From Candidatus Eiseniibacteriota bacterium (GTDB lineage Bacteria; Eisenbacteria; RBG-16-71-46): a DNA stretch of 57,759 bases. The stretch is from positions 1-57,759 of the forward strand of contig JANLWK010000222.1 of the NCBI GenBank assembly GCA_031364505.1. The letters run 5' to 3'. This document shows positions 13,006 to 57,538 of this stretch, piece after piece (positions within the stretch are counted from its first letter, which is position 1; the number at the start of each line of letters is the position of its first letter). Position numbers and translations under genes: made by a program. Below the pieces are notes generated by a model. It saw only the letters and a program-made list of their open reading frames with translations. It was not told where the DNA came from and ran no database searches.

Positions 13006-13058
13006 CGCCGTCCCAGGGCATCAAGCCTGGAGGCGGAGGCCACCTCGAGGAGGTCACC

Positions 13059-25367: not shown

Positions 25368-25402
25368 TGCCGAACGCGCGCCCGCTGAGGTAGATTGCAC
25401 CG

Positions 25403-30117: not shown

Positions 30118-30270
30118 ATCTACGCCGCGTCGGACGCCCCCTGTCTCATCAAGAGATCGTAAGTCTGCGGGCATGCGGCTATAATGAGGCGTCGGTGCCG
30201 CCTCTGGGACGTCGGTGCGGGCCGGCCCTACGCGCGTCAGGCGCACCTTGCCCAGCATCCCGGAGAGCCG

Positions 30271-33200: not shown

Positions 33201-34794
33201 AGCGCTGTGCCTGATGTCGGCATTCGACCATGCCCGCGTTCCGAACGCGGATCAGCTCGGTCTCCAGTTCGGCGCGGGATCGTTCTCCATCGCCGCGTGG
33301 CTCAACGTCGGCGCCAGCACCGCCGGGCCGCGTACCATCGTCGAGAAGCGCGTGCCGCTCGCGGGCTCGTCGACGGGGCAGTCGCTCGGTTGGGCGCTCT
33401 ATCTCACCGGGAACCAGAGTCACTTGGAGATCGGCACGGGCGGCGCGCCGCAGGTCGTGACGGGCCCCGATGTGCCGGCCGACACGTGGACGCATCTCGC
33501 CGTGTCGATCGACCGGGTCGCGCACGAGGGCCGCTGGTACCTGGATGGCAGCCCGATCGCCGCGTTCGACTTCGCGCCCATCGCGGGCAACGTGTCGAGC
33601 GGCGGCGACCTCTATATGGGGAGTGTGAGCCCGGCGTTCGGGACCGGGGCGGCGTTCCAGGGGTGCATTGGCGATCTCGAACTGTTCGCGGCGCCGATGT
33701 CGCCGGCGGCCGCGGCGAAGGCCGCCACGACGGGTCCGATCACCTGGTGCCCCGAATACGCCGTGATGCCGCAGGTCACGTCCATCTGCCAGTCGCAGAC
33801 GACCGCACAGGTTTGCTTCAACATCTGCAACAACACCGGCGTGCCGCGGATCTATCACTGGTCACTCGCGGGCCTTCCCGCGGGCCCCGGCTGCACCCTG
33901 GCCGGTCCGACGCTGTTCGTCCCGGCCTCGGGCGCCGTCACCGTTCCCGCCGGCGGTTGTTCACCGCCCATCTGCGTCACGATCACGCGGCCGGCCGGGC
34001 TCACCGCGCAGAACGCCACCGCGTGCTTCGCGCTCACGTTCATCAACGACGCGACCGGAGCGTGCCGTTCGAAGACGGGCACGCTGCGCGCGGACAACAC
34101 CTGCTGGTGCCTGACCCCGATCCCCGCCGGCGTCGTCTCCGTGCCGGCCGGCGCCGGGGGTGCGACGATCGGCATCGGCGTTCACGCGCCGTGCGACCCG
34201 CCCGCGCTCCTGGCGTATCGGATCAGCGCCGTGTGGCTCGACCCCGACCACGAGGACCCACTGGCGCTGAGCCTCGACGGCCTGCAGCCGGGCACGCCGG
34301 TGACGGGACTCCTGAACTCGGCACGCGGCGGCGAGCAGATGATCCACGTGACCGCGACCCTGCCGAACGGCTACGACTTCGCGACGAACTACGAAGTCGT
34401 GGTCGAGGCCGACGTCGACGGCAATGGCTTGGACGAGCGGTTGTGCGGCACCGTCGTCACCGCGGCGACGTACGACAGCACCGAACGTGTCGGCGTGAAT
34501 GCGGACGCGCCGATGGATCAGGCGGTCCGACTGCTGACGAACCCCAATCCGTTCATCAGCGGAACGACGATCGGGCTCGTGATGCCGCGCGCCGAAGCAA
34601 CCACGCTCGGCGTCTACGACCTGAGCGGACGTCTCGTGCGCACGCTCCAGCGCGGGCCGCTCACCGCGGGCAGCCATCGATTCGAGTGGAACGGTCGCGA
34701 CGACTCGGGACGCCGCACGCCGGCGGGCGTCTACTTCGTGAGCTTCGACGGCCCGAGCCATCACGTGAAGGCAAAACTCACCAAGCTGCGGTGA
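30271..34794 (+). CDS. 1507-aa secreted surface protein: SBBP beta-propeller repeats, SdrD-B/Cna-B-like domain, LamG-like domain, FlgD-Ig/T9SS-type C-terminal sorting domain
   Basis: Signal peptide after ATG 30271. Many repeats of WSTYYGG...D.A..VA.D..GN.Y..G.T.S..FP. YLDSNRNGVQDVGEAALPGW...DGSGNYCF. LamG-like WTHLAVSID...WYLDGS. C-terminal NPNPF...YDLSGRLVRTL...GVYFV. Confidence 0.85.
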   Translation: MQRPRTHFRLLVAACAVTLFALAMRATTAAATESSVEVMAGVTGLTAAVVTPTDAVSRATIEGWVDQLRTGWTPNLGQIGDASGRPCPNVLFATTVGATRVLVTTTGLSHYFFAREDEGDGADEEAERIAGRDGRSHEPLEREARWNRLDVTLAGASIRGDHVRLEEPLAEQGSTSYYLAHCPAGVRDLPSYGRITFSDVYPGIDWVVRSVPGDGVHQDFVVHPGADAARIRLEYAGASAIDVSDDQRTLRIRTPLGEVKEGALRCTQADGATSVGARFRVDGHAVSVVLDAYDHAKPLVIDPPLVWSTYYGGGSFDGPRAIVCDNVNDVVYVVGYTNSTNLPVMNPGGGTYFEGVAPAGQDAFIWKFSQAGVRLWATYYGGTGVEFLADGAVDAAGNFYAAGYTVSTDLPTYNLAGAYFQGANGGNADAFLLKFDASGARQWATYYGGKGADQVDALTTDASGRLYACGMTTSSTPPLVNPGGAYFQPAPNSVVEALLLRFSAADSLEWATFFGGTSYDDATGIAVSGNKLYVTGFTQSPASFPVLNPGGGAYFQGTFQGNVDAFLSRFTLAGALTWSTFYGAAGQEYGDQVAVDANGNVFIMGDTDSPAFPTLNPGGSAYYQASPAGSSDLYIVKFDSSNVRLWGTCYGGTNLENTGGSDRPLALDAQGNVYVTGQTASSDLPVLNPGGGSFYQATPGGQRDSFLGQFKNSGSMLWSTYLASNGGDFGTGVAIGNGGCLFATGESSGTNNFVTVNPGPGTWYQPANAGGDDGYITRFCTPPSSCCLDFTCVPVFSQSQCTAMGGTAFYPNQPCSTISCTILCKICGTKYLDSNRNGVQDVGEAALPGWTIQLLYPNGTLFASATTDGSGNYCFNDIPCGPWKVNEAMQPAWVQTAPSPAVHTLNLPTGATQNGVNFGNYSCGTPLNCLLAPPRLAAWWAFDFDPGATSTVDVAHLNPARNVAQLQLDATSAQSPGALCLMSAFDHARVPNADQLGLQFGAGSFSIAAWLNVGASTAGPRTIVEKRVPLAGSSTGQSLGWALYLTGNQSHLEIGTGGAPQVVTGPDVPADTWTHLAVSIDRVAHEGRWYLDGSPIAAFDFAPIAGNVSSGGDLYMGSVSPAFGTGAAFQGCIGDLELFAAPMSPAAAAKAATTGPITWCPEYAVMPQVTSICQSQTTAQVCFNICNNTGVPRIYHWSLAGLPAGPGCTLAGPTLFVPASGAVTVPAGGCSPPICVTITRPAGLTAQNATACFALTFINDATGACRSKTGTLRADNTCWCLTPIPAGVVSVPAGAGGATIGIGVHAPCDPPALLAYRISAVWLDPDHEDPLALSLDGLQPGTPVTGLLNSARGGEQMIHVTATLPNGYDFATNYEVVVEADVDGNGLDERLCGTVVTAATYDSTERVGVNADAPMDQAVRLLTNPNPFISGTTIGLVMPRAEATTLGVYDLSGRLVRTLQRGPLTAGSHRFEWNGRDDSGRRTPAGVYFVSFDGPSHHVKAKLTKLR

Positions 34795-47082: not shown

Positions 47083-48558
47083 CTATGGGGTTCGGGGCCC
47101 GCGGCTCGTGACCCGTACGACCAGCGCCTGGAATCGCGGCTCCCCGCGGAGCGGCTCGAGATCGGTGTCAACCGCCATGCCGTTGCCGACGGTGCCGCCT
47201 TCGCCGATCGCGGTCTCGAGCGCACGGAGCGCATCCTGCTTGCGGCCCAGCCGCGCGTACCCGCATGCGAGGTTGTAGGACGCCACGCCGCGTGTCGAGG
47301 GGCCGGGAGGGATGCCGGCTTCGAACGCCTGCTCGTAGCGGCGCACGGCGGCCTCGTTGCGGTTGAGCGCCAGCTCGGCGAACGCGAGCTGGCCGAAATG
47401 GAGGCTCATGTTCCAGCCCTGGCCGATGGCGCGCTCGAGCAGCCGCGCTCCCTCGGCGTAGCGTTGCTGGCCGACCAGCGCGCTGCCGTAGTGCGCGATC
47501 ACGGCGACATTCGTGCTGTCCGTCCGGTAGACGCGCTCGAGTGCCGCCATCGCCTCGGGGAACCGGCGCAGGTCCTGGAGCACGCGTGCGTAGCTCATCA
47601 GCGCTTCGGGGTCGTCGGGATGCGTCTCGAGCCACGGCCCGAGCAGCGCGGCCGCGCGCGGTGAATCGTTGCCGTAGAGGGCGGCCATCAGTTCCCGTTC
47701 GTCGGAATGCGCCCACGCGGGTTGCGGCACCGGCTGCAGGTGCGAGCGCCAGAAACCGATCGTGCGCTGCACGATCCGGCGCGCGTCGTCGTTGTCGGCG
47801 AACGCGTCGAATGCGTGCGGCATGCCGGCGGCGAATTCCAGCGTCCACGGCGCGCCCGTCGCGATCACGCGATGCCACAGCGAGTCGAGCGGCGCCCCCA
47901 TGCGCGGCGCGTCGCTGGCGGCGACGACGAACAGCACCGGCAGGTCGCGACGGAGTGAGTCCGTCGGCGGGCCGCCGTAGTAGAGCACCGCGGCCTTGAT
48001 GCTCTTCGGCGCGTCGGCCGCGAGCAGGAATTGCGTGGCGCCCGTCACGTTGGCGGATGCCGCGTAGACACCGACGCGCGTCCCATCGATGCCCGGCGGC
48101 GCGTCGCGAGACTCGAGGAACGCGAACAGCCGCCTCAGCGAGCCCGGGATGTCCGCCGAGTCCGCTTGCATCGAGACGCCCGCGAATCCCTGCGTCGCCA
48201 TGAGCCGCGGCCACGTCCGGTAGATGCCCCAGTCCTTGAGCGAGTCGTTCCGCCGGTCGCCGATGGTGTTGAGGAACACGACGACCGGCAGCCGCTCACC
48301 CTTCGCGAGCTTCGGCGGCAGGTACACATCGATCGCCCGCGAATGTGTCGCATCCTTCCAATACGGCACGTTCGCAAGGAGCCGCACGTCCCTCGTCGCG
48401 GGGACGTCGTAGACGACGCCCCAACGCGTCGGATTCAGGCGGTCGGCGCGCGCCTGGGCGTGCGCGACGGGAGGGGCAGGCGTGAGGACGAGGGCGGCGA
48501 AAACGAAGGCGAGCGCGAAGCGACTCGCCGGGCGGCGTGAACGCGGAAGTGGATTCAT
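47083..48558 (-). CDS. secreted alpha/beta-hydrolase-fold (dienelactone hydrolase-like) protein fused to C-terminal TPR repeats
   Basis: ATG 48558 (MNPLPRSRRPASRFALAFVFAALVL...AHA signal). The N-terminal 280 aa look hydrolase-like (LPVVVFLN...GVYAASAN...PHAFD). The C-terminal 200 aa form TPR repeats. Confidence 0.75.
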   Translation of the reverse strand: MNPLPRSRRPASRFALAFVFAALVLTPAPPVAHAQARADRLNPTRWGVVYDVPATRDVRLLANVPYWKDATHSRAIDVYLPPKLAKGERLPVVVFLNTIGDRRNDSLKDWGIYRTWPRLMATQGFAGVSMQADSADIPGSLRRLFAFLESRDAPPGIDGTRVGVYAASANVTGATQFLLAADAPKSIKAAVLYYGGPPTDSLRRDLPVLFVVAASDAPRMGAPLDSLWHRVIATGAPWTLEFAAGMPHAFDAFADNDDARRIVQRTIGFWRSHLQPVPQPAWAHSDERELMAALYGNDSPRAAALLGPWLETHPDDPEALMSYARVLQDLRRFPEAMAALERVYRTDSTNVAVIAHYGSALVGQQRYAEGARLLERAIGQGWNMSLHFGQLAFAELALNRNEAAVRRYEQAFEAGIPPGPSTRGVASYNLACGYARLGRKQDALRALETAIGEGGTVGNGMAVDTDLEPLRGEPRFQALVVRVTSRGPRTP

Positions 48559-48719
48559 GTCCCGACTGTGAAAACGCCGGCGACTGCCGTCAATGCCCCT
48601 GACACGAGCGGGCGGATTGTTCACACCAGCGTCGTAACTGCAGGGATCAGTGGCATCAACGGCCGCATCGCTGCCGCCCCACATTGCACGCCAAAGTGCC
48701 CGGGAGCATCATCGAAGGG

Positions 48720-50111
48720 ATGCATCCAGAATATCGCTGGATCACCGTGGAAGCCGGCCGGCACCAGTTCCTGCGCCCCGTGTTTTCGTCGCTGGGCGCA
48801 TCGTCCATCCGGATCCTGGTCGAGGATGTCGACCCGGCCGTGCCGTTCGATCGTTCGCAGTGCGGCGGCCTCGTGCTGGCGGTCGGCGAGTGCCAGGGGC
48901 GCGCGGTCGCGGTCGCGTGGAGCGACTTCCGCGTGGACGGCGGTTGCTACAACCACGCGAACGCCTCACGCTTCACCGCCTTCCTCCGCGAGCTGGGGAA
49001 CGACGCCGGCGGTGGACCTCCGCTCTTCTACGTCGTGAACTCTGCCGGCGTCAGCCTGGTCCAGGGACGCACACTGTTCGCCGACGCGTTCCGGCTGTGG
49101 CCCGAGCTGCTCGCGTACTCGCGCGAGCACGTCGTCGTGACGTGCGCGGTCGGCAAGTGCCTCGGACTGGCGACCCTGTTGTTCGGGCTCGGCCACTACC
49201 GCATGGCGGTCATGGGTCGCACGCACATCAACCTCACGGGCCCCGAGGTCCTGGAGCTGTTCTTCGGCGATCGCGTGGACTTCGCGCGCCAGGCCGCGGC
49301 GGAGTCGTCGTACGACCGGAACGATCTCGTGCACGAGCTGGTGCCGTCGGTCGAGGTGGCGTTCGAGCGGTGGAAGGGGTTGCTCGGCCTCGGGCACGAG
49401 TCCACGCCCGTCACCACGGAGCAGGATCCCGTGACGATCGAATTCCTCGGCGCCTTCCTCGATCCGGGGCCACAGGAGCTGGTGCCCGGCTGGTGTTCGA
49501 CGCTGCGGCTGTTCCTGGGTGCGAGGCGGGGCCGGCCGATCGGGATCTTCATCAACCCGCTGCGCCGCCCCGAAAACCTCATCACCGTGCGCACGCTCGA
49601 CAAGTACGCGGCGGGGCTCGACCTGTTCCGGGCGCTGCGTGTCCCGATCGTGAGCGTCCTCGACTCTCCGGGCGTGGATCCGCGCTTCGAGCAGAGCGAC
49701 GCCAACAACATCCGCCGGATGCTCGCGGTGGGCGAGAAGATCATCACGTACCCGCACCCGTTCATGGGAGTGATCGCGGGGCGTTGCTTCGGCGGCGCGT
49801 CCACGCTCTCGATGCCCAAGATCTTCGGCGGCCGCCGATCGCTGGCGCTGCGCGGCAGCACGTTCGGCGTGATGCAGAGCAGCATCATCGACCGGGTGTT
49901 GCAGCAGAGCCCGCGGTTGCGCGAGCTGTGGCGGGCGTCGGAGGCGGAGCAGGTGCCCGGGCTCGAGGATCTCCTGGGGTCGGGCATGCTGGACGCGGTG
50001 ATCGATCTCCACGAGCTGCCCGACGAGATCGATCGCCTGCTGACCGAGGCCGCGGCGTCCGCTTCGCGGCGTGACGGCGCTCCACGCGTGGCCACGAGCG
50101 GTCCACGATGA
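48720..50111 (+). CDS. carboxyltransferase-domain protein (both CT sub-domains fused; acyl-CoA carboxylase CT / decarboxylase-like)
   Basis: N-terminal half: ...AWSDFRVDGGCYNHANASRF...VVNSAGVSLVQG...TGPEV. C-terminal half: RPIGIFINP...LDKYAAGLDLFRALRVPIVSVLDSPGVDP...GRCFGGAS. Start is ATG 48720, or TTG 48684 as the alternative. Confidence 0.75.
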   Translation: MHPEYRWITVEAGRHQFLRPVFSSLGASSIRILVEDVDPAVPFDRSQCGGLVLAVGECQGRAVAVAWSDFRVDGGCYNHANASRFTAFLRELGNDAGGGPPLFYVVNSAGVSLVQGRTLFADAFRLWPELLAYSREHVVVTCAVGKCLGLATLLFGLGHYRMAVMGRTHINLTGPEVLELFFGDRVDFARQAAAESSYDRNDLVHELVPSVEVAFERWKGLLGLGHESTPVTTEQDPVTIEFLGAFLDPGPQELVPGWCSTLRLFLGARRGRPIGIFINPLRRPENLITVRTLDKYAAGLDLFRALRVPIVSVLDSPGVDPRFEQSDANNIRRMLAVGEKIITYPHPFMGVIAGRCFGGASTLSMPKIFGGRRSLALRGSTFGVMQSSIIDRVLQQSPRLRELWRASEAEQVPGLEDLLGSGMLDAVIDLHELPDEIDRLLTEAAASASRRDGAPRVATSGPR

Positions 50112-51100
50112 GAGCCGCGATCGCGGGGACCGGCTTCTACGTCCCGGGCCCGCCGATCACGAACGCCGAACTGATCGAGCGCTACCGGCTCCGGATCAGG
50201 CCGTCGTTCGCGACGCGGAGCATCGGAGTCGAGACGCGCCACTTCGCAGGACCAGGGCAGGCCACGAGCGACCTGGCCGCCGAAGCCGCGGCGCGCGCGC
50301 TCGATGCGAGCGGGGTTCCCGGCACGTCGATCCGCCGCATCATCCTCGCCACGGTCTCCGGCGACTACCCGACGCCGGCGACGGCGTGCGTCGTCCAGCG
50401 CAAGCTGGGACTTCGAGGATGCGCCGCCATCGACCTCGTCGGCGCCTGTTCCGGCTTCCTGCAGGCGCTCGATCTCGGCGCCCGGTGCGTCGCGACGGGA
50501 GAGGGCCCGGTCCTCGTGATCGGGGCCGACGTGCGTTCGCGCCAGCTGAATGTGACCGACCTGCGCACGCTGTTCCTGTACGGCGACGGGGCCGGTGCGG
50601 TCGTCCTCGTGCCGTCGCGGGGCGACGAGGGGCTGCATCACTCGATCCTGTTCGCCGACGGCGCGGGTGCGGAGGCCGTGTACATCCCGGCGGGCGGCTC
50701 GCGCGAACCGCTCACCGCCGACGGAATCGCGCGACATCGTGGCACCATCACGATGCCCGATGGACCGCTCGTCGCCGATGCCGCGCGGGCGGGGTTCCGC
50801 GCGCTGACGAATCGGCTGGTCGCCGAAACGGGCGTGACGCTCGGCGAGATCGGGTGCTTCTGCATGCACCAGCCCAACCTGTTCCTGCTGCGTCGCGTCC
50901 TCGAGGACCTCGGCATCCCCGAAACCAAATCCTGGATCAACTTCCCGCGCTACGCGAACACGACGTCGGCCTCGGTCGCGATCGCGCTGGCCGAAGCGGC
51001 GCACGCGGGGCACATCGCACCGGGCAGCTGGCTCTGCCTGGGCGCGGTCGGTGCGGGATTCGCGGGCGCGATCCAACTCATTCGCTGGGGGAAACCCTGA
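50108..51100 (+). CDS. KASIII (FabH-like 3-oxoacyl synthase III / thiolase-fold condensing enzyme)
   Basis: ATGA overlap with the upstream stop. Cys (VGACSGF), His (CMHQPN), Asn (YANTTSAS). 330 aa. Confidence 0.88.
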   Translation: MRAAIAGTGFYVPGPPITNAELIERYRLRIRPSFATRSIGVETRHFAGPGQATSDLAAEAAARALDASGVPGTSIRRIILATVSGDYPTPATACVVQRKLGLRGCAAIDLVGACSGFLQALDLGARCVATGEGPVLVIGADVRSRQLNVTDLRTLFLYGDGAGAVVLVPSRGDEGLHHSILFADGAGAEAVYIPAGGSREPLTADGIARHRGTITMPDGPLVADAARAGFRALTNRLVAETGVTLGEIGCFCMHQPNLFLLRRVLEDLGIPETKSWINFPRYANTTSASVAIALAEAAHAGHIAPGSWLCLGAVGAGFAGAIQLIRWGKP

Positions 51101-51105
51101 TCCTC

Positions 51106-51801
51106 GTGACGGGGGCGAGCCGCGGGATCGGCTACGCGTGTGCCCGGGCGCTGCTCGAGCGCACGGACGCGAACATCATGCTGACGGGGCGCGACCCGGA
51201 ACGACTGTGCGCCGCGCGTGAAGCACTGCCGCCGGAACAGCGGGAGCGCGTGCTCACTCGCGCCCGCGACCAGGCGAATCCCCGCGCGGTCGACGCGCTG
51301 ATCGCGGAACTGTCCGCGCCCGGCCTGTCGGTGGAAGGTGCCATCCTCACCGTGGGCGAGAACCCGCTCTATGAGGAGGGGCCGCGCCGCCTGCACGCGC
51401 TGGACGCCGGCACGATCGAGACGACGGTGCGCACGAACTGCACGGAGTTGTTGAGGTTGTCCGCCGCGCTACTCGGCCGGTTCCGCGAGCAGCGCTCGGG
51501 TGTGCTGATCTGGATCGGCTCCCAGGCGGCGCGCTACGGCATTCCGGGTGCCGCCCTCTACGGGGCGACGAAGGCATTCCTGTCCGGGCTCGCGTGCGCC
51601 GCGGATCACGAGTACGCCGGCCGCGGCGTTCGCGTGCACCTGCTGCACCCCGGCGTCGTGCGCACGCCGCGGACGCACGATGTCGCCGACGCGTTCGCCG
51701 CGCGCCACGGGCTCGTCGTGGCCGAGGCGCCCGACGTGGCGCGCCGCGTCGTGGACGTGTTCCTCACCGGCACCCCCGCGGGCGTGGAGCAGGACATATG
51801 A
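51106..51801 (+). CDS. short-chain dehydrogenase/reductase (SDR)
   Basis: TGASRGIG cofactor motif; YGATK catalytic motif. GTG 51106 is the nearest canonical in-frame start upstream of the cofactor motif, but it cuts the beta1 strand. An in-frame CTG at 51097 (CTGA overlap with the KASIII stop) would give MILVTGASRGIG. Confidence 0.8.
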   Translation: MTGASRGIGYACARALLERTDANIMLTGRDPERLCAAREALPPEQRERVLTRARDQANPRAVDALIAELSAPGLSVEGAILTVGENPLYEEGPRRLHALDAGTIETTVRTNCTELLRLSAALLGRFREQRSGVLIWIGSQAARYGIPGAALYGATKAFLSGLACAADHEYAGRGVRVHLLHPGVVRTPRTHDVADAFAARHGLVVAEAPDVARRVVDVFLTGTPAGVEQDI

Positions 51802-52577
51802 TCGCCCTCGACGTGTTGTGGTGGGTCGGCTGGATGTACTTCACGGCGTGGGTCGCGCTGCCGCTCGCGCTGAGCCTCGTCGCGGGCCCCGTGATCGGCG
51901 GCCTCGCCTGGGCCCTGCTCGCCCCCTGGTCCGCGCTGGCCGGGATGGCGCTCGCGCACCGGCTGCTGCCTTCGCCCGCCGCCGGAACGTTCCGCATGTT
52001 CTCCGACCGCGACAGCATCCGCTGGGCGCTCAAGGGCTGGCCGCCCGCGGTGTACCTCGCGGTATTCCAGCCCGTGTTCTTCCTGAGCCCCGCCTTCCAG
52101 CGCGTGGTCCTGCGCGCGTTCGGCGCGCGGCTCGGGTCCGGCGCGCAGGTGACCACGCGCACCAGCGTGCGCGAACCCCACCTGCTCGAGCTGGGCCGCG
52201 ATTGTATGGTGGGCGAGTTCGTCCACCTCGTGTGCTCGTACCAGCCGAAGCCGCGCACGCTGGTGGTGGGACGAATACGCATCGGCGACGAGGCGATGAT
52301 CGGCGCCTACGGCGTGCTGGGCGCCGGCTGCCGCGTCGGCGCGCGGAGCATCCTGGAATTCCGCGTGGCCCTCGGCGCCGACGCCTCGATCGGCGAGGAC
52401 GCGCGAATCGGCTCCGGGACGACCATCTACAATCGCGCGCGCATCGGCAACGGTGTCCGCATCGGCAAGCAATGCTCGATCGCGATCGGCGCGGTGGTCC
52501 CCGACGGCGCGCGGCTGCCCGACGGTACCGTGTGGCCGGCAGGCCCCGACGCATCGGGTGGGGTGGGGACGACGTGA
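51798..52577 (+). CDS. membrane-anchored hexapeptide-repeat (LbH) acyl/acetyltransferase
   Basis: ATGA overlap. Two to three N-terminal TM helices. Then tandem [LIV]-G-x4 hexapeptides (IGDEAMIGAYGVLGAGCRVGARSIL...IGEDARIGSGTTI...IGNGVRIGKQCSI). Confidence 0.8.
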   Translation: MIALDVLWWVGWMYFTAWVALPLALSLVAGPVIGGLAWALLAPWSALAGMALAHRLLPSPAAGTFRMFSDRDSIRWALKGWPPAVYLAVFQPVFFLSPAFQRVVLRAFGARLGSGAQVTTRTSVREPHLLELGRDCMVGEFVHLVCSYQPKPRTLVVGRIRIGDEAMIGAYGVLGAGCRVGARSILEFRVALGADASIGEDARIGSGTTIYNRARIGNGVRIGKQCSIAIGAVVPDGARLPDGTVWPAGPDASGGVGTT

Positions 52578-54238
52578 TCGCAAATTTCATGTTCGAGCGG
52601 AGCTACCGGCGCTTCGTCGCGGCGCGCGAGCAGCCGCTGCGCGCGCAGGCCGCCCGGCTGCGTGCCATCCTCGGCCAGGCGCGGGACACCACGGTCGGCC
52701 GGCGCGCGGACTTCGCCCGCATCCGGAGTATCCGCGACGACGCGGCGATGATCGGCGCGTTCCGCCGGGAGGTACCGGTGCGCACGTGCGCCGAGATGCG
52801 CGACGATCTCGACGCGGTCTATGCCGGCGACTGGCGACGAATGTGCCCGAGCCGGCCGGTATTCTTCGCCATGACTGCCGGATCCACGGGGCACTACAAG
52901 TACGTCCCGGTCACCGCGGAGTTCCGGCGCGAGTTGCGCGAGGCGGCGCTGGTCTTCAGCGGCGCGATGCAGGCGTGCTATCCCGCCGTTCGCCGGCTGC
53001 GATCTCAGTTTCTCGTGGGATCCGCGGAAGGCGGCCGATCGCCGGCAGGAATCCCGCAAGGGTTCGCGTCGGGATTCAACTACAAGAACTTCCCGTGGCT
53101 CGTGCGCCGCCGGTTCACGGTGCCGTACTGGGTGTTCACCATCGAGGACACCGAGGAGCGCAATTACGCCGCCGGGCGCATCCTCGTATCCGAGCGACGG
53201 CTGGGCGCGCTCGTTGCCATCTCGCCCGTCAACCTGATCAACCTGCGCCAGGCGCTCGACCGCAACGCCGCGCGACTCTGCGACGACATCGCCGCGGGCA
53301 CGCTCGACGTGCGCGGGGCCTCGGCCGTGCGCGGGAGTTTCCACACGCGGCCCGACCCCGCGCTCGCCGGGGCGCTGCGCGACGCCTGTCGCGGTGGCGG
53401 AAGGCTGCCCACGCGCCTGCTGTTTCCGGGGCTCGAGGTGCTCGTGTGCTGGCAGGGAGGCAACATGGGCTATTCCCTCGACGCGCTGGACGCCGCCTTC
53501 GAGATGCGCCACCGCCTCGAGTTCCCGGTGTCGGCGAGCGAGGGCGTGTTCGCGATCCCGCACCGCGCCGACCGGCCGGGTGGCGTGCTGGCGATCACGT
53601 CGCACTTCCTTGAGTTCCTGCCCGACTCGGGCGGGAGCGCCGCCACCGGCGAGGCGTTGCGCGCCGACCAGCTCGAGCCCGGCGGCGAGTACCGGATCGT
53701 GGTGACGAACGGCGGCGGGCTCCATCGTTACGACATGGAGGACATCGTGCGCGTCACCGAGATCGTCGGCCGCACACCGGCCATCGAGTTCGTGGCGAAG
53801 GCGGGCCGTCGCACTTCCGTGAGCAACGAGCGACTCACCGAGCTCGACGTGACGCACGCCATGCTTGCGGCCAGCCGGGCGTGCGGACGCTGGTTCGATG
53901 CGTTCCTGTTCGTCCCCTGCACCGACCGCCGCTACCGTGTCGTGCTGGACGGCGCCGAGCTGCGCGGCGCCGGGGGAGGCGAACACGGGTTGCCGGAACT
54001 CGCGGCGGAGTTGGAGCGTCAGCTGCGAGCCGCGAGCAAGGGTTACGACTTCGAGCGCGACGACGCGCTGCTCGAGCCGCTCGAGGTCGTGGTGACCGCG
54101 CCGGGCGAGCTGGTCGAGCACCTGCGCCGTGCACAGGGTGCGCCGGCGATCCCGAGTGCCCAGGACAAGCCCGTGCGGCTCACCGCGGAGTTCGACCTGC
54201 ACCGGCGCCTCGCGATCCGGAGGGCGCATGCGGCTTAG
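52574..54238 (+). CDS. GH3-family (PF03321-like) adenylating acyl-acid amido synthetase homologue
   Basis: GTGA overlap. The three GH3/ANL nucleotide motifs are recognisable: TAGSTGHYKYVP (SSGTT-like), SASEG (YxxSE-like), HRYDMEDIV (YRxGD-like). 554 aa. Confidence 0.78.
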   Translation: MIANFMFERSYRRFVAAREQPLRAQAARLRAILGQARDTTVGRRADFARIRSIRDDAAMIGAFRREVPVRTCAEMRDDLDAVYAGDWRRMCPSRPVFFAMTAGSTGHYKYVPVTAEFRRELREAALVFSGAMQACYPAVRRLRSQFLVGSAEGGRSPAGIPQGFASGFNYKNFPWLVRRRFTVPYWVFTIEDTEERNYAAGRILVSERRLGALVAISPVNLINLRQALDRNAARLCDDIAAGTLDVRGASAVRGSFHTRPDPALAGALRDACRGGGRLPTRLLFPGLEVLVCWQGGNMGYSLDALDAAFEMRHRLEFPVSASEGVFAIPHRADRPGGVLAITSHFLEFLPDSGGSAATGEALRADQLEPGGEYRIVVTNGGGLHRYDMEDIVRVTEIVGRTPAIEFVAKAGRRTSVSNERLTELDVTHAMLAASRACGRWFDAFLFVPCTDRRYRVVLDGAELRGAGGGEHGLPELAAELERQLRAASKGYDFERDDALLEPLEVVVTAPGELVEHLRRAQGAPAIPSAQDKPVRLTAEFDLHRRLAIRRAHAA

Positions 54239-55253
54239 CGTGCCGGGCGTGCGCGTCGCGGACGTGGAATCGTGTGACTTCGCGATGATCCCGAGCATGG
54301 ACACGCGATCGCTGCTGCGGGCCGCGCGCCCGGAGGACTGGGAACGTTATCTCGAGTCACCGGTGTCGCGCCGGCTGCTGGCCGAGCTGGGCGTCGAGCG
54401 GCGCTACATGACGCACGTGCCCGGCCGCTTGCCCGACCCGGCGCGCCTCACCGCGCTCGACCTCGGGATCTCCGCCGTCGAGCGACTCCGCGCGCGGCGA
54501 CCGGACCTGCTCGCGCACCTCGATGCGATCGTGTTCGTGAGCACGTCGAATCCGAGCCCGTGCAATTGCCAGGCCTCGCTGCTCGCGGAACGGCTCGGCC
54601 TGGCCGCGTCGTGTTACGACATCAAGGCGGGCTGCAGCAGCGGGGTGCTGGGGATCGCCCAGGCGGCGCTCCTCGTGGCGGCGGGATGCGAGCGCGTGCT
54701 CGTGGTCATGGCCGAGAACCTGTCGCAGCTCATGCCCGCCGACGACCTGCGCGCGCTGCTCACGGTGGGCGATGGCGCCGCATGCGCCGTGGTCGAGCGG
54801 CACGAGGGACCCGGGTTCGTGAGCGTCCTGCACGAGACCGATTCGCGCTTCGCCGGCACGATGGCCGTGCGCGCGCCGTTTCCGCCCGCCGTCCCGGACG
54901 CGCGGTACGTGTACGAATTCGCCGACACGCAGGCCGTGCGTGATGCCCTGCACGAACGTTGGCGCGACGTGTTCGGCGAGAGCATGCGGGCCGCCGGCAT
55001 GCGGCCCGGCGATCTGGCGCACGCATTCTTGCACCAGACCCACGCCGCCCAGGTCGACGACCTCGTGCGAGACGTCGGCCTCGATCCCGCGCGCGTCGTG
55101 CGCGTGGTGCACGAGCACGGCAACATGGGCTCGCCGACCTTCGCGGTGGCGATGTCGCGGGCGTTCGCGCGCATCGAGCCCGGCCAGCGTTTCCTGATGC
55201 AGGCGGTGGGAGGCGGCCTGAGCTCCTGCGCGATCGTCGCGGAGCACCGGTGA
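54228..55253 (+). CDS. second, divergent KASIII/thiolase-fold condensing enzyme
   Basis: ATG 54228 follows GGAGGG and overlaps the GH3 3' end by 11 nt. Cys (KAGCSSG), His (FLHQTHA), Asn (HGNMGSP). Confidence 0.8.
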   Translation: MRLSVPGVRVADVESCDFAMIPSMDTRSLLRAARPEDWERYLESPVSRRLLAELGVERRYMTHVPGRLPDPARLTALDLGISAVERLRARRPDLLAHLDAIVFVSTSNPSPCNCQASLLAERLGLAASCYDIKAGCSSGVLGIAQAALLVAAGCERVLVVMAENLSQLMPADDLRALLTVGDGAACAVVERHEGPGFVSVLHETDSRFAGTMAVRAPFPPAVPDARYVYEFADTQAVRDALHERWRDVFGESMRAAGMRPGDLAHAFLHQTHAAQVDDLVRDVGLDPARVVRVVHEHGNMGSPTFAVAMSRAFARIEPGQRFLMQAVGGGLSSCAIVAEHR

Positions 55254-57538
55254 CACGACCGGCGGGACCGGGCAGGACATCGCTGGCGCTCGCGATCGTG
55301 CGCGGGCGCGGCTGGATCGGCGCCGCGTGGGTGCTGGTGGCGGCGCTGCTGCTGCCGCAGGCGCGGCGTGCTCCCGACGTGCTCGACGTGGGCGCCCACA
55401 TCCGCGGCAGCGAATCCGCCGCCGTCGAGCAACTGCTCGCCGGCCCGCTCGCCTCGTCGTATGCGCGTTACGCGGTCCTCGTGGTGGGAGGGATCCCGTC
55501 GCCGAACACGCCCGCGGGCACCGCCGCACTCGAGCGTATCGTGTGGCCGCTGCGGGATGCGCCGGCGGTGGCCGGCGTCTTCTCGTATCTCGACTACCCG
55601 GACACGCTGTTCGTGTCACCGCGCGGGCGGGGGACGCTCGTGCTCGTCGGGTTCGCGTCCGACCAGGGCTCGCCCGATCGCCTCGTGCCACCGTTGCGCA
55701 GCCTCACCGCCCACCTGGCCGACAGCCTGCGCGCCGACTTCCCCTCCGTGACCCTGCGATGGACCGGGGAGACCGCGCTGAACGTCGACCTGCGCCGCGC
55801 GAGCGGCCTGGACGTCGGCGCGGCCGAGCGCCGGGCGCTGCCGCTCACAGCGCTGTTCCTCCTGCTGGCGTTCGGCGCGCTGGTCGCGGCATTGCTCCCG
55901 GTGCTCGCCGGTCCGCTCGCGATCGCGATCACGCTGGGCGCCGCGGTGATGGTGGCCCTCGTGTGGCCGCTCTCGATCCTGTTGCAGAGCGTCGTGGCGA
56001 TGCTCGGGCTCGGGCTCGGCATCGACTACGCGCTGCTGATGGTGAGCCGGTTCCGCGAGGGGCTCGCCGGTGGCGAAACGCCGGAGGCCGCGGCGGAAAC
56101 GGCGGCGCGTCACGCGGGTCACACCATCCTGCTCTCGGCCGCGGCCGTCGCCCTCGGATTCGCCGTCCTGCTGAGCGTGCCTCTCAACGAGATGCGCGCG
56201 ATCGCCGTGGGCGGCCTGCTGGTGGTCGTCGTGTCGGCGCTACTCGCCACCACGCTGCTCCCCGGCGTGCTGGCGGCACTCGGGCACCGCGTGGACTGGG
56301 GCCGGCTGGGATGGCGGCCGGCCGCCCGCTCGGGCGCGGAGGGATGGCGGCGATGGGGGCGCTGGATCACCGCGCGCCCGTGGATCGCGCTCGTCGCGGG
56401 CGTCCTTCCGCTCGCGCTGCTCGCCGCGCAGGCGCCGCGAATGCGGACCGGGCTGCCGCGCGGCGACTGGCTGCCGGCGTCCATGGAGTCGGTACGGGCG
56501 CTCGACGACCTGGCCTCGATGGGGCGCCGCGGCGTGGTGCAGGCCGTACGCGTGGTCATCGAGTTCCCGGATGCCGGCCCGGAGCGGCGCATCGCGGACT
56601 GGCGAGCGCTGGCGCGTTTCGACGCGGCGCTACGCGCCGATCCGAGAGTCGAACGCGTGCGCTCGGTGTTCGCGGTGGCGGAGGCTTCGCACCTCGACTG
56701 GGCCGACATGGTTACGCTGCCGGAGGGGCTCGCCCCGCCGCTCACACGCGGACTCGTCAGCGCGGAGGGCGCGAGCGCTCTGCTCGAGCTGGTGCCGCGC
56801 GACGAGCTGAAGCCCGAGGAGGCGGTCGCGCTGGCGCGCGAGCTTCGCGCGAACGCGGCGCGGCGAATCGGCGTCCCGGGCGCTCGCGTGCGCGTCGGCG
56901 GCCTGCCCGCCTTCAACGCCGACTACCAGGACGCGGTCGCCGGACGCTTCTGGCAGATTGTCGGGTTGATCGTCGCAGGCACGCTGCTCGCGCTGTTCCT
57001 CGGGTTCCGCTCGGTGCTCGTGCCGCTCAAGGCGGTCGTGCTGAACCTGCTCACCGTCGCAGCGACATTCGGGGCGGTGGTGCTGGTGTTCCAGGAGGGC
57101 CACGGGGGCGGCGTCTTCGGTGTGCGCGAGCCGCTCGGGGCCGTGTTCTCGTCGCTGCCCGTGATGGTGTTCGCCATCGTGTTCGGCCTCAGCATGGATT
57201 ACGAGGTGTTCCTGATGACGCGCGTGCGGGAGGGATGGATGGCGGGGGCGGGCAACCGCGAGGCCATCGTGGACGCGCTGGGGACGACCGCGCAGGTGAT
57301 CACCAGCGCGGCCGCCATCATGCTCGTCGTGTTCGCCGCGTTCACGCTCGGCGACTTCCTGATCACGAAGATGCTCGGCTTTGCCCTGGCCGTCGCCGTC
57401 CTGCTCGACGCGACGATCGTACGCATGGTGATCGGCCCCGCGCTGCTGCAGCTCGCGGGCCGCTGGAACTGGTGGCCGGGTGCGGGCCGGAGACGGCCCG
57501 AAACGCCCGGCGACACCGCCCCTACATCATCGGTTTGA
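55250..57538 (+). CDS. MMPL-family (RND superfamily) membrane transporter
   Basis: GTGA overlap. Two 6-TM modules, each carrying the MMPL signature (GIDYALLMVSRFRE; GLSMDYEVFLMTRVRE). Two periplasmic loops. Confidence 0.88.
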   Translation: MTRPAGPGRTSLALAIVRGRGWIGAAWVLVAALLLPQARRAPDVLDVGAHIRGSESAAVEQLLAGPLASSYARYAVLVVGGIPSPNTPAGTAALERIVWPLRDAPAVAGVFSYLDYPDTLFVSPRGRGTLVLVGFASDQGSPDRLVPPLRSLTAHLADSLRADFPSVTLRWTGETALNVDLRRASGLDVGAAERRALPLTALFLLLAFGALVAALLPVLAGPLAIAITLGAAVMVALVWPLSILLQSVVAMLGLGLGIDYALLMVSRFREGLAGGETPEAAAETAARHAGHTILLSAAAVALGFAVLLSVPLNEMRAIAVGGLLVVVVSALLATTLLPGVLAALGHRVDWGRLGWRPAARSGAEGWRRWGRWITARPWIALVAGVLPLALLAAQAPRMRTGLPRGDWLPASMESVRALDDLASMGRRGVVQAVRVVIEFPDAGPERRIADWRALARFDAALRADPRVERVRSVFAVAEASHLDWADMVTLPEGLAPPLTRGLVSAEGASALLELVPRDELKPEEAVALARELRANAARRIGVPGARVRVGGLPAFNADYQDAVAGRFWQIVGLIVAGTLLALFLGFRSVLVPLKAVVLNLLTVAATFGAVVLVFQEGHGGGVFGVREPLGAVFSSLPVMVFAIVFGLSMDYEVFLMTRVREGWMAGAGNREAIVDALGTTAQVITSAAAIMLVVFAAFTLGDFLITKMLGFALAVAVLLDATIVRMVIGPALLQLAGRWNWWPGAGRRRPETPGDTAPTSSV

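What the first reader, a model, noticed from the sequence alone, without database searches (positions are those of the whole stretch)
48720..57538. Seven-gene overlap-coupled operon (carboxyltransferase, KASIII, SDR, TM-hexapeptide acyltransferase, GH3, KASIII-like, MMPL): candidate undescribed lipid or beta-lactone-type pathway
Seven same-strand ORFs have essentially no intergenic space. Junctions are ATGA at 50108, CTGA at 51097 (or GTG 51106), ATGA at 51798, GTGA at 52574, an 11-nt overlap at 54228, and GTGA at 55250.

Motif-level calls:
- a carboxyltransferase with both CT halves; no biotin carboxylase or BCCP was recognised in any gene of this window
- a KASIII with an intact Cys-His-Asn triad
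- an SDR (TGASRGIG, YGATK)
- a hexapeptide acyltransferase with its own TM anchor
- a GH3-family adenylating enzyme
- a second, very divergent KASIII-like protein, also with Cys-His-Asn
- an MMPL exporter

There is no ACP, PKS, NRPS or glycosyltransferase. The chemistry set is two FabH/OleA-like thiolases, a ketoreductase and an adenylating enzyme. This parallels OleA-OleD-OleC and the lipstatin/nocardiolactone LstAB/NltAB-LstD-LstC logic. Here, however, the ANL beta-lactone synthetase position is taken by a GH3 protein, and a carboxyltransferase, an LbH acyltransferase and an MMPL exporter are added.

I cannot place this composition in any characterised cluster I know. Plausible products are an exported head-to-head condensed beta-hydroxy or beta-lactone lipid, or an N-acyl amino acid lipid.
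Basis: partly seen in the sequence, partly recalled or inferred. Interest (0 to 1): 0.82.

Follow-up and report, generated by a model that had tools for sequence, protein, structure and literature searches.

The report
Conserved GH3–FabH lipid-type operon, uncharacterised
Seven tightly packed genes in a Gemmatimonadota contig form a real, widely conserved operon whose core (two FabH-type condensing enzymes, a reductase, a carboxyltransferase and a plant-hormone-type GH3 ligase) recurs in other phyla and matches no described pathway; it probably makes and exports an acyl–amino-acid-type amphiphile.

Summary
Seven same-strand ORFs (48720-57538) overlap or abut, and Pfam confirms every family call: carboxyltransferase (CT), KASIII, SDR, a membrane-anchored left-handed beta-helix acyltransferase (TM-LbH), GH3, a second KASIII and MMPL.

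The same order is kept in 16/16 Gemmatimonadota genome loci and 32/32 metagenome loci with GH3 at 50% identity or more. Flanking genes are not conserved.

The core (CT, two distinct KASIII paralogs, GH3, usually SDR) recurs in shuffled order in Pelomonas/Roseateles isolates, Pseudomonadales MAGs and other contigs. There it comes with either the LbH or a 468-aa ATP-grasp-like protein, and with an MFS in place of the MMPL.

GH3 proteins at 35% identity or less mostly lack these partners.

No ACP, BCCP or thioesterase occurs in any variant.

Both KASIIIs keep Cys-His-Asn but are FabH-like, not OleA-like.

The only characterised bacterial GH3 (OlsH) joins 3-hydroxy fatty acids to ornithine.

My best model: CoA-based condensation and reduction make a beta-hydroxy, possibly alpha-branched, acyl acid. 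GH3 amidates it, LbH tailors it and MMPL exports it. The product is unknown.

No description was found in the searchable literature. I rate it a new variant of a known kind, interest about 0.62.

The parts
48559..48719 (.). Probable divergent promoter region between the operon and the upstream minus-strand TPR protein gene.
   Evidence: The minus-strand ORF 47083-48684 has a signal-peptide-like sequence starting at its internal Met43. That start would leave about 160 bp upstream of g1. No consensus sigma-70 site was found. This part is inferred.
48720..50111 (+). g1: divergent acyl-CoA carboxylase (YCC) beta-subunit-type carboxyltransferase with both crotonase halves. An alternative TTG start lies at 48684.
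   Evidence: Pfam PF01039, 59 bits. The family profile aligns full length to PccB-type structures at 117-127 bits. The C-domain oxyanion G-G-A motif is invariant. PccB D422 is replaced by T/S/A. The N-domain motif 'AGG' is 'LGL'.
50108..51100 (+). g2: KASIII-a, a near-FabH condensing enzyme.
   Evidence: PF08541/PF08545. NCBIfam FabH subfamily, 238 bits against a cut-off of 249. PDB FabH, 163 bits. Cys-His-Asn is invariant in 16/16 orthologs. Thr or Ser sits at the EcFabH Phe87 position in 22/22 sequences.
51097..51801 (+). g3: classical SDR ketoreductase, with a CTG start at the position of ATG/GTG in orthologs.
   Evidence: PF00106, 105 bits. The motifs TGxxxGxG, Ser and YxxxK are invariant across 23 sequences. 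Start-codon comparison.
51798..52577 (+). g4: left-handed beta-helix (hexapeptide) acyltransferase with a hydrophobic N-terminal membrane anchor.
   Evidence: PF00132, 48 bits. The best NCBIfam hit is the Pls/PosA C-terminal domain at 66 bits. The best PDB hits are LpxA/LpxD. Hydropathy peak at residues about 10-43. Orthologs occur in L017, L020, L024, L029 and L054.
52574..54238 (+). g5: GH3-family adenylating acyl-acid amido synthetase.
   Evidence: PF03321, 138 bits, and GH3_M, 64 bits. Residues 40-517 align with rice GH3.8 (7dk8). The motifs TxGSxGxxK, SASEG, RYxxED and the C-terminal QxKP are invariant or nearly so in 22 sequences. The OlsH model scores only 69 bits against a cut-off of 620.
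54228..55253 (+). g6: KASIII-b, a divergent FabH-type paralog.
   Evidence: PF08541/PF08545. The best PDB hit is FabH 1ub7 at 88 bits. Cys-His-Asn is invariant in 14/14 orthologs. It is orthologous to a separate KASIII in the distant clusters.
55250..57538 (+). g7: MMPL-family RND exporter.
   Evidence: PF03176, 237 bits. The MmpL3 domain model scores 251 bits. Two Asp-Tyr pairs (GIDYALL at aa 259, SMDYEVF at aa 650) lie in membrane segments. It is present in Gemmatimonadota loci only. Other lineages have an MFS or no transporter.

Best explanation
The region is a translationally coupled seven-gene operon of a Gemmatimonadota bacterium. It belongs to a wider, previously undescribed family of gene clusters. 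The core of that family is a YCC-type carboxyltransferase, two different FabH-type condensing enzymes, a GH3 ligase and usually an SDR.

Proposed mechanism:
1. The carboxyltransferase, working with the cell's housekeeping biotin carboxylase/BCCP, supplies a dedicated (alkyl)malonyl-CoA extender. (Inferred.)
2. The two KASIII enzymes, which keep an intact Cys-His-Asn triad, carry out decarboxylative Claisen condensation(s) on CoA-linked substrates without a dedicated ACP. (The triad is shown; the substrates are inferred.)
3. The SDR reduces the beta-keto group. This gives a beta-hydroxy, possibly alpha-branched, acyl unit. (Inferred.)
4. The GH3 enzyme adenylates a carboxylate and joins it to an amine such as an amino acid, as the characterised OlsH does with 3-hydroxy fatty acids and ornithine. 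(Inferred by homology.)
5. The membrane-anchored LbH acyltransferase adds or transfers a second acyl group. (Inferred.)
6. The MMPL pump moves the amphiphilic product out of the cytoplasmic membrane. (Inferred.)

The product is most likely an exported N-acyl amino-acid-type lipid or lipoamino acid. Its structure is not known.
For: The operon is real and conserved.
- The junctions overlap.
- The order is identical in 16/16 Gemmatimonadota genome loci and in 32/32 metagenome loci.
- Flanking genes are not conserved, so the seven genes form a discrete unit.

The functional linkage extends beyond one lineage.
- All seven full-length GH3 representatives scoring about 297-453 bits had at least one KASIII gene beside them; CT, SDR and a second KASIII were also present wherever the contig reached.
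- These loci have different orders and G+C contents: L017-L024, Pelomonas sp. BJYL3 (L026), a Pseudomonadales MAG (L029), L027/L028 and L054.
- The next representative, at 224 bits, has a different context.
- Only 6 of 42 loci with GH3 at 35% identity or less have any partner-type gene.

The enzymes look active.
- Cys-His-Asn, the SDR triad, the GH3 nucleotide motifs and the CT C-domain oxyanion hole are invariant across the family.
- Both MMPL Asp-Tyr pairs are present.

Evidence for amide chemistry.
- OlsH, the only characterised bacterial GH3, makes N-(3-hydroxyacyl)ornithine from the free acid plus ATP.
- Variant clusters pair GH3 with a translationally coupled 468-472-aa ATP-grasp-like protein.
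- Others pair it with an ICMT/PEMT-type membrane methyltransferase or a JmjC/cupin hydroxylase plus an MFS.
- A RimK-GH3 fusion exists elsewhere.

Evidence that the CT is a genuine carboxyltransferase.
- It aligns full length with PccB-type structures.
- The remote variant L061 has a canonical CT in the same setting.
- MccB is a precedent for a cluster-encoded beta-subunit that uses the housekeeping alpha-subunit.

Evidence for larger acyl primers.
- The residue at the EcFabH Phe87 position is small in both paralogs. I recall this as the mtFabH-type open pocket.
- L061 carries a fatty acyl-AMP ligase.
Against: - No thioesterase is present to release a free acid for GH3.
- No ACP, BC or BCCP is present in any variant. 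Several hand-overs between enzymes are therefore unexplained.
- The GH3 is far from OlsH (69 bits against a cut-off of 620). Its acyl and amine substrates cannot be read from the sequence.
- The CT has Leu where PccB has Gly183 in the biotin-side oxyanion hole. It could therefore be a biotin-independent decarboxylase instead.
- A bulky Trp/Ile aligns with PccB Phe160, which in YCC beta-subunits goes with substrates of C4 or shorter. This argues against long alpha-branches.
- The LbH has no invariant His, and it is missing from some variants.
- Exporters differ among variants (MMPL, MFS or none). Whether the product is a membrane lipid or a secreted small molecule is open.
- No experiment exists on any member of this cluster family.
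Confidence: 0.45

Rival explanations
1. This is a mycolate-like head-to-head condensation system. The CT carboxylates a fatty acyl-CoA at C2, the role of AccD4. GH3 activates a second fatty acid as the acyl-AMP, the role of FadD32. A KASIII performs the decarboxylative Claisen condensation, the role of Pks13-KS. The SDR reduces the beta-keto group, the role of CmrA. The LbH transfers the alpha-alkyl-beta-hydroxy acyl chain to an acceptor. The MMPL flips it outward, the role of MmpL3. GH3 here is an activating enzyme, not an amide synthetase.
For: - There is a one-for-one functional parallel between the two gene sets.
- The SDR's second-best NCBIfam hit is mycolate reductase (84 bits), and the MMPL's best hit is the MmpL3 domain model (251 bits).
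- A dedicated CT is invariant in the core.
- The remote variant L061 combines a CT with a FadD32-like fatty acyl-AMP ligase and two KASIIIs.
Against: - In L061 the FAAL occurs in addition to GH3, so GH3 is not filling that role there.
- No GH3 enzyme is known to transfer to a thiol or a carrier.
- No ACP or PKS is present.
- A bulky residue sits at the PccB Phe160 position.
- All the NCBIfam scores lie far below the equivalog cut-offs.
Confidence: 0.15
2. This is an Ole/lipstatin-type pathway. The two KASIIIs act as an OleA/LstAB-like pair that condenses two acyl-CoAs. The SDR acts as OleD. GH3 replaces the ANL beta-lactone synthetase OleC and closes a beta-lactone, which is then exported.
For: - The set contains two thiolase-fold enzymes, a reductase and an adenylating enzyme.
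- A beta-hydroxy acid adenylate could lactonise.
- No thioesterase or amine-supplying gene is present in the operon.
Against: - Both KASIIIs score much better against FabH than against OleA structures: 163 versus about 54 bits, and 88 versus about 34 bits.
- The NCBIfam PRK09258 model, which I recall as OleA-like, scores 95 bits against 238 for FabH.
- The invariant CT has no role in an Ole-type non-decarboxylative condensation.
- There is no OleB.
- The partner ATP-grasp-like and methyltransferase genes point to carboxylate and amide chemistry instead.
Confidence: 0.07
3. The cluster decorates a glycan or protein rather than making a free lipid. KASIII and the SDR make a short 3-hydroxyacyl group such as 3-hydroxybutyryl. 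The LbH N-acylates an amino sugar. GH3 amidates a sugar or other carboxylate with an amino acid.
For: - The LbH orthologs score best against LpxD, NeuD/PglB/VioB and WcaF sugar acyltransferase models.
- In L027/L028 the cluster lies between flhB and flhA, a typical place for flagellin-modification genes.
- The bulky residue at the CT Phe160 position suggests short substrates.
Against: - No glycosyltransferase, sugar-nucleotide or nonulosonate gene occurs in any variant.
- Dedicated MMPL or MFS exporters are present.
- The LbH is absent from several variants.
- The flanks of the Gemmatimonadota operon are unrelated to glycan synthesis.
Confidence: 0.1
4. The seven genes are a fortuitous juxtaposition of unrelated genes, or are not co-expressed.
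For: No transcript data exist.
Against: - The stop and start codons overlap.
- 48 of 48 related loci keep the order.
- The core recurs in shuffled form in other phyla.
Confidence: 0.01

Closest known systems
OlsH/OlsI ornithine-lipid pathway of Singulisphaera acidiphila (PMC12493201)
   Same: A bacterial GH3-family enzyme in a lipid operon. It performs an ATP-dependent, ACP- and CoA-independent N-acylation of an amino acid with a (3-hydroxy) fatty acid, followed by a second acylation. A modifying methyltransferase lies in the same operon; compare the ICMT/PEMT gene beside GH3 in L022.
   Different: The GH3 here scores 69 bits against the OlsH model, whose cut-off is 620. There is no OlsI-type alpha/beta-hydrolase. 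The cluster has its own condensing enzymes, reductase, carboxyltransferase, LbH acyltransferase and MMPL exporter. The amine substrate is unknown.
Mycolic acid condensation and export system (FadD32-Pks13-AccD4, CmrA, MmpL3); recalled knowledge
   Same: The functional set matches: an adenylating enzyme, a carboxyltransferase beta-subunit, a Claisen condensing enzyme, a beta-ketoreductase and an MMPL exporter.
   Different: There is no PKS or ACP. The condensing enzymes are free-standing FabH-type proteins. The adenylating enzyme is GH3, not a FAAL. The host is a diderm Gemmatimonadota. All similarity scores lie far below the equivalog cut-offs.
OleABCD / lipstatin LstABCD / nocardiolactone Nlt beta-lactone pathways; recalled knowledge
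   Same: A pair of thiolase-fold enzymes, a reductase and an adenylating enzyme, with no ACP.
   Different: The KASIIIs are FabH-like, not OleA-like. The core includes a CT, which implies decarboxylative chemistry. The adenylating enzyme is GH3, not an ANL enzyme. There is no OleB.
Cluster-encoded YCC beta-subunits such as MccB/SamR0483 of the stambomycin cluster (PMC5187497)
   Same: A stand-alone carboxyltransferase beta-subunit inside a biosynthetic cluster, with no BC/BCCP gene nearby. A non-acidic small residue replaces PccB Asp422.
   Different: The profile scores only about 95 bits against MccB. The N-domain Gly-Gly motif is changed to Gly-Leu. A bulky Trp/Ile sits where MccB has Gly161. 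The extender would feed KASIII enzymes, not a modular PKS.
Pls/PosA C-terminal membrane-embedded LbH-like domains (NCBIfam TIGR02353)
   Same: The window's LbH protein has this model as its best NCBIfam hit (66 bits), and it combines membrane segments with a beta-helix.
   Different: It is a free-standing 259-aa protein with no A or T domain. Distant orthologs score better against LpxD/NeuD/WcaF models.

Membership tests
GH3 acyl-acid amido synthetase family (PF03321) | The Pfam N-terminal and central GH3 domains score above their gathering thresholds. | tested here: met
   138 and 64 bits against a cut-off of 23.6.
GH3 acyl-acid amido synthetase family (PF03321) | The three nucleotide-binding motifs are present, and the protein aligns over its full two-domain length with a solved GH3. 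| tested here: met
   TAGSTGHYK, SASEG and RYDMED are present and invariant or nearly so in 22 sequences. Residues 40-517 align with 7dk8.
GH3 acyl-acid amido synthetase family (PF03321) | ATP-dependent amide formation between an acyl acid and an amine. | not testable with these tools
   This needs an enzyme assay.
OlsH lyso-ornithine lipid synthetase (NCBIfam NF052613 equivalog) | The score reaches the curated cut-off of 620 bits. | tested here: not met
   69 bits, N-terminal third only. The Pelomonas homolog scores 107 bits.
OlsH lyso-ornithine lipid synthetase (NCBIfam NF052613 equivalog) | An operon partner of the OlsI alpha/beta-hydrolase O-acyltransferase type. | tested here: not met
   None is present in the seven-gene unit or in any variant cluster.
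FabH / KASIII condensing enzymes | ACP_syn_III and ACP_syn_III_C domains plus the Cys-His-Asn triad. | tested here: met
   Both g2 and g6 have the domains. The triad is invariant in 16/16 and 14/14 orthologs and in the distant members.
FabH / KASIII condensing enzymes | The score reaches the NCBIfam FabH subfamily cut-off (249 bits for PRK09352). | tested here: not met
   g2 scores 238 bits, just below the cut-off. g6 scores 111 bits. The EcFabH arginines R36, R151 and R249, which I recall as ACP/CoA contacts, are not conserved.
OleA-type head-to-head thiolases | Closer to OleA than to FabH. | tested here: not met
   OleA structures (3row, 3s21, 4ku*) score about 54 bits for g2 and about 34 bits for g6. 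FabH scores 163 and 88 bits.
Acyl-CoA carboxylase (YCC) carboxyltransferase beta-subunit | Two crotonase-fold halves that align with PccB-type structures. | tested here: met
   Family profile positions 39-444 align with PccB residues 78-517 at 117-127 bits.
Acyl-CoA carboxylase (YCC) carboxyltransferase beta-subunit | Both oxyanion holes are present (PccB G182-G183 and G419-A420). | tested here: inconclusive
   The C-domain G-A pair is invariant. In the N-domain, G182 is conserved but G183 is Leu in the window protein and all 12 Gemmatimonadota orthologs aligned.
Acyl-CoA carboxylase (YCC) carboxyltransferase beta-subunit | A biotinylated BC/BCCP partner is available. | tested here: not met
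   No BCCP motif occurs in the window. No BC/BCCP gene occurs in any variant cluster. A partner encoded elsewhere in the genome cannot be checked.
Classical SDR ketoreductase | The TGxxxGxG motif and the Ser-Tyr-Lys triad. | tested here: met
   Invariant in 23 sequences. PF00106 scores 105 bits.
Hexapeptide (LbH) acyltransferase | Hexapeptide repeats above the Pfam threshold, plus an N-terminal membrane segment. | tested here: met
   PF00132 scores 48 bits against a cut-off of 27. A hydropathy peak lies at residues 10-43.
Hexapeptide (LbH) acyltransferase | A conserved catalytic His, typical of many LbH acyltransferases (recalled knowledge). | tested here: inconclusive
   No His is invariant among 20 sequences. 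An invariant Gly-Glu pair is present instead.
MMPL (RND) lipid exporters | The MMPL domains and the Asp-Tyr proton-relay pairs. | tested here: met
   PF03176 scores 237 bits. DY pairs lie at aa 259 and 650. The MmpL3 equivalog cut-off of 1400 bits is not reached; the score is 251.

The most novel reading that the evidence does not exclude
Gemmatimonadota, and some Proteobacteria, use an ACP-free and PKS/NRPS-free route to a new lipid class. A dedicated carboxyltransferase and two FabH-type enzymes perform a mycolate-like decarboxylative head-to-head condensation. The resulting alpha-branched beta-hydroxy acid is then amide-linked to an amino compound by a GH3 ligase and exported by an MMPL pump to the outer membrane. 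This would be a convergent, diderm counterpart of the FadD32-AccD4-Pks13-CmrA-MmpL3 system, combined with OlsH-type aminolipid chemistry.
Probability: 0.15. Interest if true: 0.85.

Novelty: new variant of a known kind. Interest (0 to 1): 0.62.

Why it matters
Only one bacterial GH3 enzyme has been characterised (OlsH, 2025), although thousands of homologs exist. This cluster family ties a distinct GH3 subfamily to a fixed set of partners: two FabH paralogs, a divergent carboxyltransferase and a reductase. The set is found in at least Gemmatimonadota, Burkholderiales and Pseudomonadales.

That gives a concrete, testable route to a new amphiphile class built without ACP, PKS or NRPS. Gemmatimonadota are abundant in soil and poorly cultured, and their envelope lipids are little known.

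The Pelomonas sp. BJYL3 and Roseateles flavus variants occur in isolates, so genetics and lipidomics are feasible now. The divergent carboxyltransferase and the GH3/ATP-grasp-like pairs could also be useful amide-forming and carboxylating biocatalysts.

Tried and rejected
1. OleA/beta-lactone assignment. I rejected it as the leading model because both KASIIIs are FabH-like and a CT is part of the core.
2. Pls/PosA relationship of the LbH as a defining feature. It holds only for the Gemmatimonadota protein (66 bits). Distant orthologs score better against LpxD/NeuD/WcaF models.
3. Extra conserved genes (ACP, BCCP, thioesterase) in the flanks. None were found. Flanks are unrelated between loci, and the upstream window genes are a TPR protein, TetR, hydrolases, a methyltransferase and a GNAT.
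4. The eighth ORF overlapping the MMPL stop (ATGA at 57535). It is only 48 codons before its stop, and nothing conserved lies downstream in the other loci. I do not regard it as a gene.
5. Taxonomy of the low-GC variant loci by exact cluster look-up. No named members were returned. The profile search gave only MAG names: Pseudomonadales and Gammaproteobacteria.
6. Classifying the 468-aa GH3 partner. It has only a sub-threshold CP_ATPgrasp_2 hit (25.6 bits against a cut-off of 32), no NCBIfam hit and no PDB sequence homolog.
7. One look-up was wasted on a 566-aa isoform that is not on record.
8. Confirming whether OlsG belongs to the PEMT Pfam family, and two further literature searches. The paper tool failed from then on.
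9. Structure prediction was not run. Sequence evidence already fixed the folds, and the tool reports no pocket geometry.

Full report
**1. Observation**

- ATGA at 50108
- CTGA at 51097
- ATGA at 51798
- GTGA at 52574
- an 11-nt overlap at 54228-54238
- GTGA at 55250

Pfam places every product in the predicted family above the curated threshold:

| Gene | Family | Score |
|---|---|---|
| g1 | Carboxyl_trans | 59 bits |
| g2 | ACP_syn_III/_C | – |
| g3 | adh_short | 105 bits |
| g4 | Hexapep | 48 bits |
| g5 | GH3 + GH3_M | 138 and 64 bits |
| g6 | ACP_syn_III/_C | – |
| g7 | MMPL | 237 bits |

The odd CTG at 51097 lies exactly where 12 orthologs have ATG or GTG inside an ATGA/GTGA overlap. It is therefore the homologous start. 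The public gene call for GH3 is five residues shorter.

No + strand promoter-like or terminator-like site lies inside the unit. No BCCP biotinylation motif exists in any frame of the window. The short ORF that overlaps the MMPL stop runs only 48 codons before its stop, and I do not regard it as a gene.

**2. Conservation**

A scan of one genome per species with the GH3 protein found 16 loci. All are Gemmatimonadota or unclassified MAGs, at 54-74% identity. In every one the genes lie in the order CT, KASIII-a, SDR, LbH, GH3, KASIII-b, MMPL, as far as the contig reaches.

Genes flanking the unit are unrelated between loci, except in near-identical genomes. The window's own upstream genes are a miscellany: a TPR protein, TetR, hydrolases, a methyltransferase and a GNAT. 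The seven genes are therefore a discrete module.

A metagenome scan added 80 loci.
- All 32 loci with GH3 at 50% identity or more keep the canonical order. Eleven of them hold all seven genes.
- Of 42 loci with GH3 at 35% identity or less, only six have any partner-type gene nearby.

**3. The cluster family beyond Gemmatimonadota**

An exhaustive search of 50%-identity representatives showed a steep score ladder:
- the orthogroup at 697 bits
- seven full-length representatives at 297-453 bits (36-48% identity)
- a drop to 224 bits and below

Every one of those representatives sits beside genes of the same families, in different orders and in DNA of 36-70% G+C.

| Locus | Gene arrangement |
|---|---|
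| L017 | KASa-SDR-CT-KASb-(LbH, reverse)-GH3 |
| L020 | KASb?-KASa-SDR-LbH-CT-GH3 |
| L024 | GH3-KASa-SDR-LbH-CT |
| L022/L023 | KASb, then CT-SDR-KASa (reverse), then GH3-methyltransferase |
| L018 | GH3-MFS-(JmjC)-(SDR)-(KASa) |
| L021/L026 | KASb, then CT-SDR-KASa (reverse), then GH3 and a 472-aa protein |

L026 is the genome of the isolate Pelomonas sp. BJYL3. The same 90%-identity cluster includes Roseateles flavus.

A profile search added members annotated as Pseudomonadales and Gammaproteobacteria MAGs.
- L029 has KASb, CT, a TM-LbH ortholog, SDR, KASa and GH3.
- L027/L028 have CT-MFS-GH3-468aa-KASa-GH3-468aa-SDR-KASb, lodged between flhB and flhA.

The first representative below the score gap, at 224 bits, lies next to a radical-SAM gene only.

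The two KASIII paralogs are separately orthologous across all variants. The LbH and the 468-472-aa protein appear to be mutually exclusive. That protein has a weak, sub-threshold CP_ATPgrasp_2 hit. The transporter is an MMPL, an MFS or absent. No variant carries an ACP, BC/BCCP or thioesterase gene.

**4. The enzymes**

*GH3.* The protein aligns over residues 40-517 with rice GH3.8. Its P-loop (TxGSxGxxK), SASEG and RYxxED motifs and a C-terminal QxKP are invariant or nearly so in 22 sequences. It is not an OlsH equivalog: it scores 69 bits against a cut-off of 620.

*KASIII-a.* This is almost a FabH. It scores 238 bits against a cut-off of 249 and 163 bits against FabH structures.

*KASIII-b.* This paralog is more divergent, with 88 bits against FabH 1ub7.

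*Both KASIIIs.*
- OleA structures score far lower than FabH for both.
- Cys-His-Asn is invariant in both.
- The residues I recall as the ACP/CoA-binding arginines of E. coli FabH are not conserved.
- The Phe87 position is Thr/Ser in KASIII-a and a small residue in KASIII-b. From memory, this resembles the open pocket of the long-chain M. tuberculosis FabH.
I identified positions by motif, not by number.

*CT.* The protein is a full-length but very divergent YCC beta-subunit. The family profile scores 117-127 bits against PccB-type structures.
- The C-domain oxyanion G-G-A motif is invariant.
- PccB Asp422 is replaced by Thr/Ser/Ala. MccB has a non-acidic residue at this position, and in PccB replacing the Asp with Ala allows longer substrates.
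- PccB Gly183 is Leu.
- A Trp/Ile aligns with PccB Phe160, a position that is bulky in short-chain enzymes.

*SDR.* It has the classical motifs.

*LbH.* It has a hydrophobic N-terminus. Its best NCBIfam hit is the Pls/PosA terminal domain, but distant orthologs look more like LpxD/NeuD/WcaF. No His is invariant.

*MMPL.* It has both Asp-Tyr pairs.

**5. Mechanism**

What is shown:
- an intact, conserved set of active-looking enzymes
- tight coupling of the seven genes
- co-inheritance of the core across phyla

Everything below is inferred.

The invariant presence of a private carboxyltransferase next to two condensing enzymes with decarboxylation-competent triads suggests decarboxylative Claisen condensation. 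The extender would be one that housekeeping acetyl-CoA carboxylase does not supply. The SDR would then give a beta-hydroxy, possibly alpha-substituted, acyl unit.

The only bacterial GH3 with a known function joins free 3-hydroxy fatty acids to ornithine using ATP, without CoA or ACP.

The variable partners of this GH3 subfamily all fit a product that carries an amino-acid-like head group:
- an ATP-grasp-like protein
- an ICMT/PEMT-type membrane methyltransferase
- a JmjC hydroxylase
- exporters

I therefore favour an exported N-acyl amino-acid-type amphiphile (confidence 0.45).

The main gaps are these:
- no thioesterase or carrier protein
- an unknown amine substrate
- unknown chain length
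- the altered biotin-side motif of the CT

**6. Rivals**

*Mycolate-like scheme, with GH3 in the FadD32 role (0.15).* It is attractive because the functions map one-for-one. The remote variant L061 also combines a canonical CT, a FadD32-like fatty acyl-AMP ligase, two KASIIIs, GH3 and an LbH. But in L061 the FAAL coexists with GH3, which argues that GH3 does something else.

*Ole/lipstatin beta-lactone reading (0.07).* It is weakened by the FabH-like nature of both KASIIIs and by the CT.

*Glycan or protein decoration (0.10).* It is suggested by the sugar-acyltransferase-like LbH scores and the flagellar location of L027/L028. However, no sugar-pathway genes accompany any variant.

*Chance juxtaposition.* This is excluded.

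**7. Comparison with the known, and novelty**

Four full-text searches returned only the OlsH paper and a review of aminolipids as relevant. No paper combined GH3 with FabH, a carboxyltransferase or an MMPL. The review lists orders that carry OlsH homologs and does not mention Gemmatimonadota.

The paper tool failed for later queries, and MIBiG/antiSMASH could not be run. The novelty claim is therefore limited to what could be searched.

All components belong to known families, and the general logic resembles OlsHI: a lipid or amide assembly line with an exporter. I therefore rate this a new variant of a known kind rather than categorically new.

The interest lies in three things:
- the unusual and conserved enzyme combination
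- its spread across phyla
- the existence of cultured carriers, which makes it directly testable

Noticed in passing
window 51097-51108: The SDR gene appears to start with CTG, inside a CTGA overlap with the KASIII-a stop. All 12 orthologs examined have ATG or GTG at the same position.
   Followed up: yes
L027 5674-21409 and L028 3220-17353: A variant cluster with duplicated GH3 + 468-aa pairs, CT, MFS, SDR and two KASIIIs is inserted between the flagellar export genes flhB (Bac_export_2) and flhA (FHIPEP). Whether this placement is functional is unknown.
   Followed up: partly
L026 11844-13262; L027 11661-13067 and 15864-17270: A 468-472-aa protein is translationally coupled to GH3 in the Pelomonas and L027 variants (53-55% identical between the two variants). 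It has only a sub-threshold CP_ATPgrasp_2 hit, no NCBIfam hit and no PDB sequence homolog. It seems to replace the LbH.
   Followed up: partly
L061 2816-16012: A remote variant (GH3 31% identical): canonical carboxyltransferase, FadD32-like fatty acyl-AMP ligase, KASIII, a second ANL enzyme, KASIII, GH3 and LbH. A penicillin-amidase (N-acyl amidase) gene lies on the opposite strand. No SDR was detected. About 700 nt between GH3 and the LbH remain unassigned.
   Followed up: partly
P0266, P0184, P0200, P0159: Other bacterial GH3 proteins are fused to a RimK-type ATP-grasp domain, a HAD hydrolase, DUF2062 or a cyclic-nucleotide-binding domain.
   Followed up: no
L082, L086, L087, L098: Distant GH3 genes (24-30% identity) lie near MMPL, AcrB-type RND and MFS transporter genes and 3beta-HSD/epimerase-type reductases. 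Transporter genes thus lie near GH3 in at least four unrelated loci.
   Followed up: partly
L029 11734-12123 and L024 5854-6249: A small (about 130 aa) hydrophobic protein with no Pfam hit follows GH3 in L029 (and in L030) and the CT in L024. The L029 and L024 proteins are weakly similar (24%, E = 2e-5).
   Followed up: no
window 47083-48684 (-): The upstream divergent gene encodes a TPR-repeat protein whose longest ORF begins 42 codons before a signal-peptide-like Met. The real start is probably at about 48558. Its N-terminal half looks hydrolase-like to the eye, but Pfam hit only the TPR repeats.
   Followed up: no
window 9172-13020 (-), 25394-28474 (+), 30163-34794 (+): Three very large ORFs (1283, 1027 and 1544 aa) with coding-type GC3 lie elsewhere in the window. 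I did not examine them.
   Followed up: no
P0013: One 74%-identical GH3 ortholog is deposited as 'Candidatus Eisenbacteria bacterium'. All other named orthologs are Gemmatimonadota. This could be a binning error or lateral transfer.
   Followed up: no
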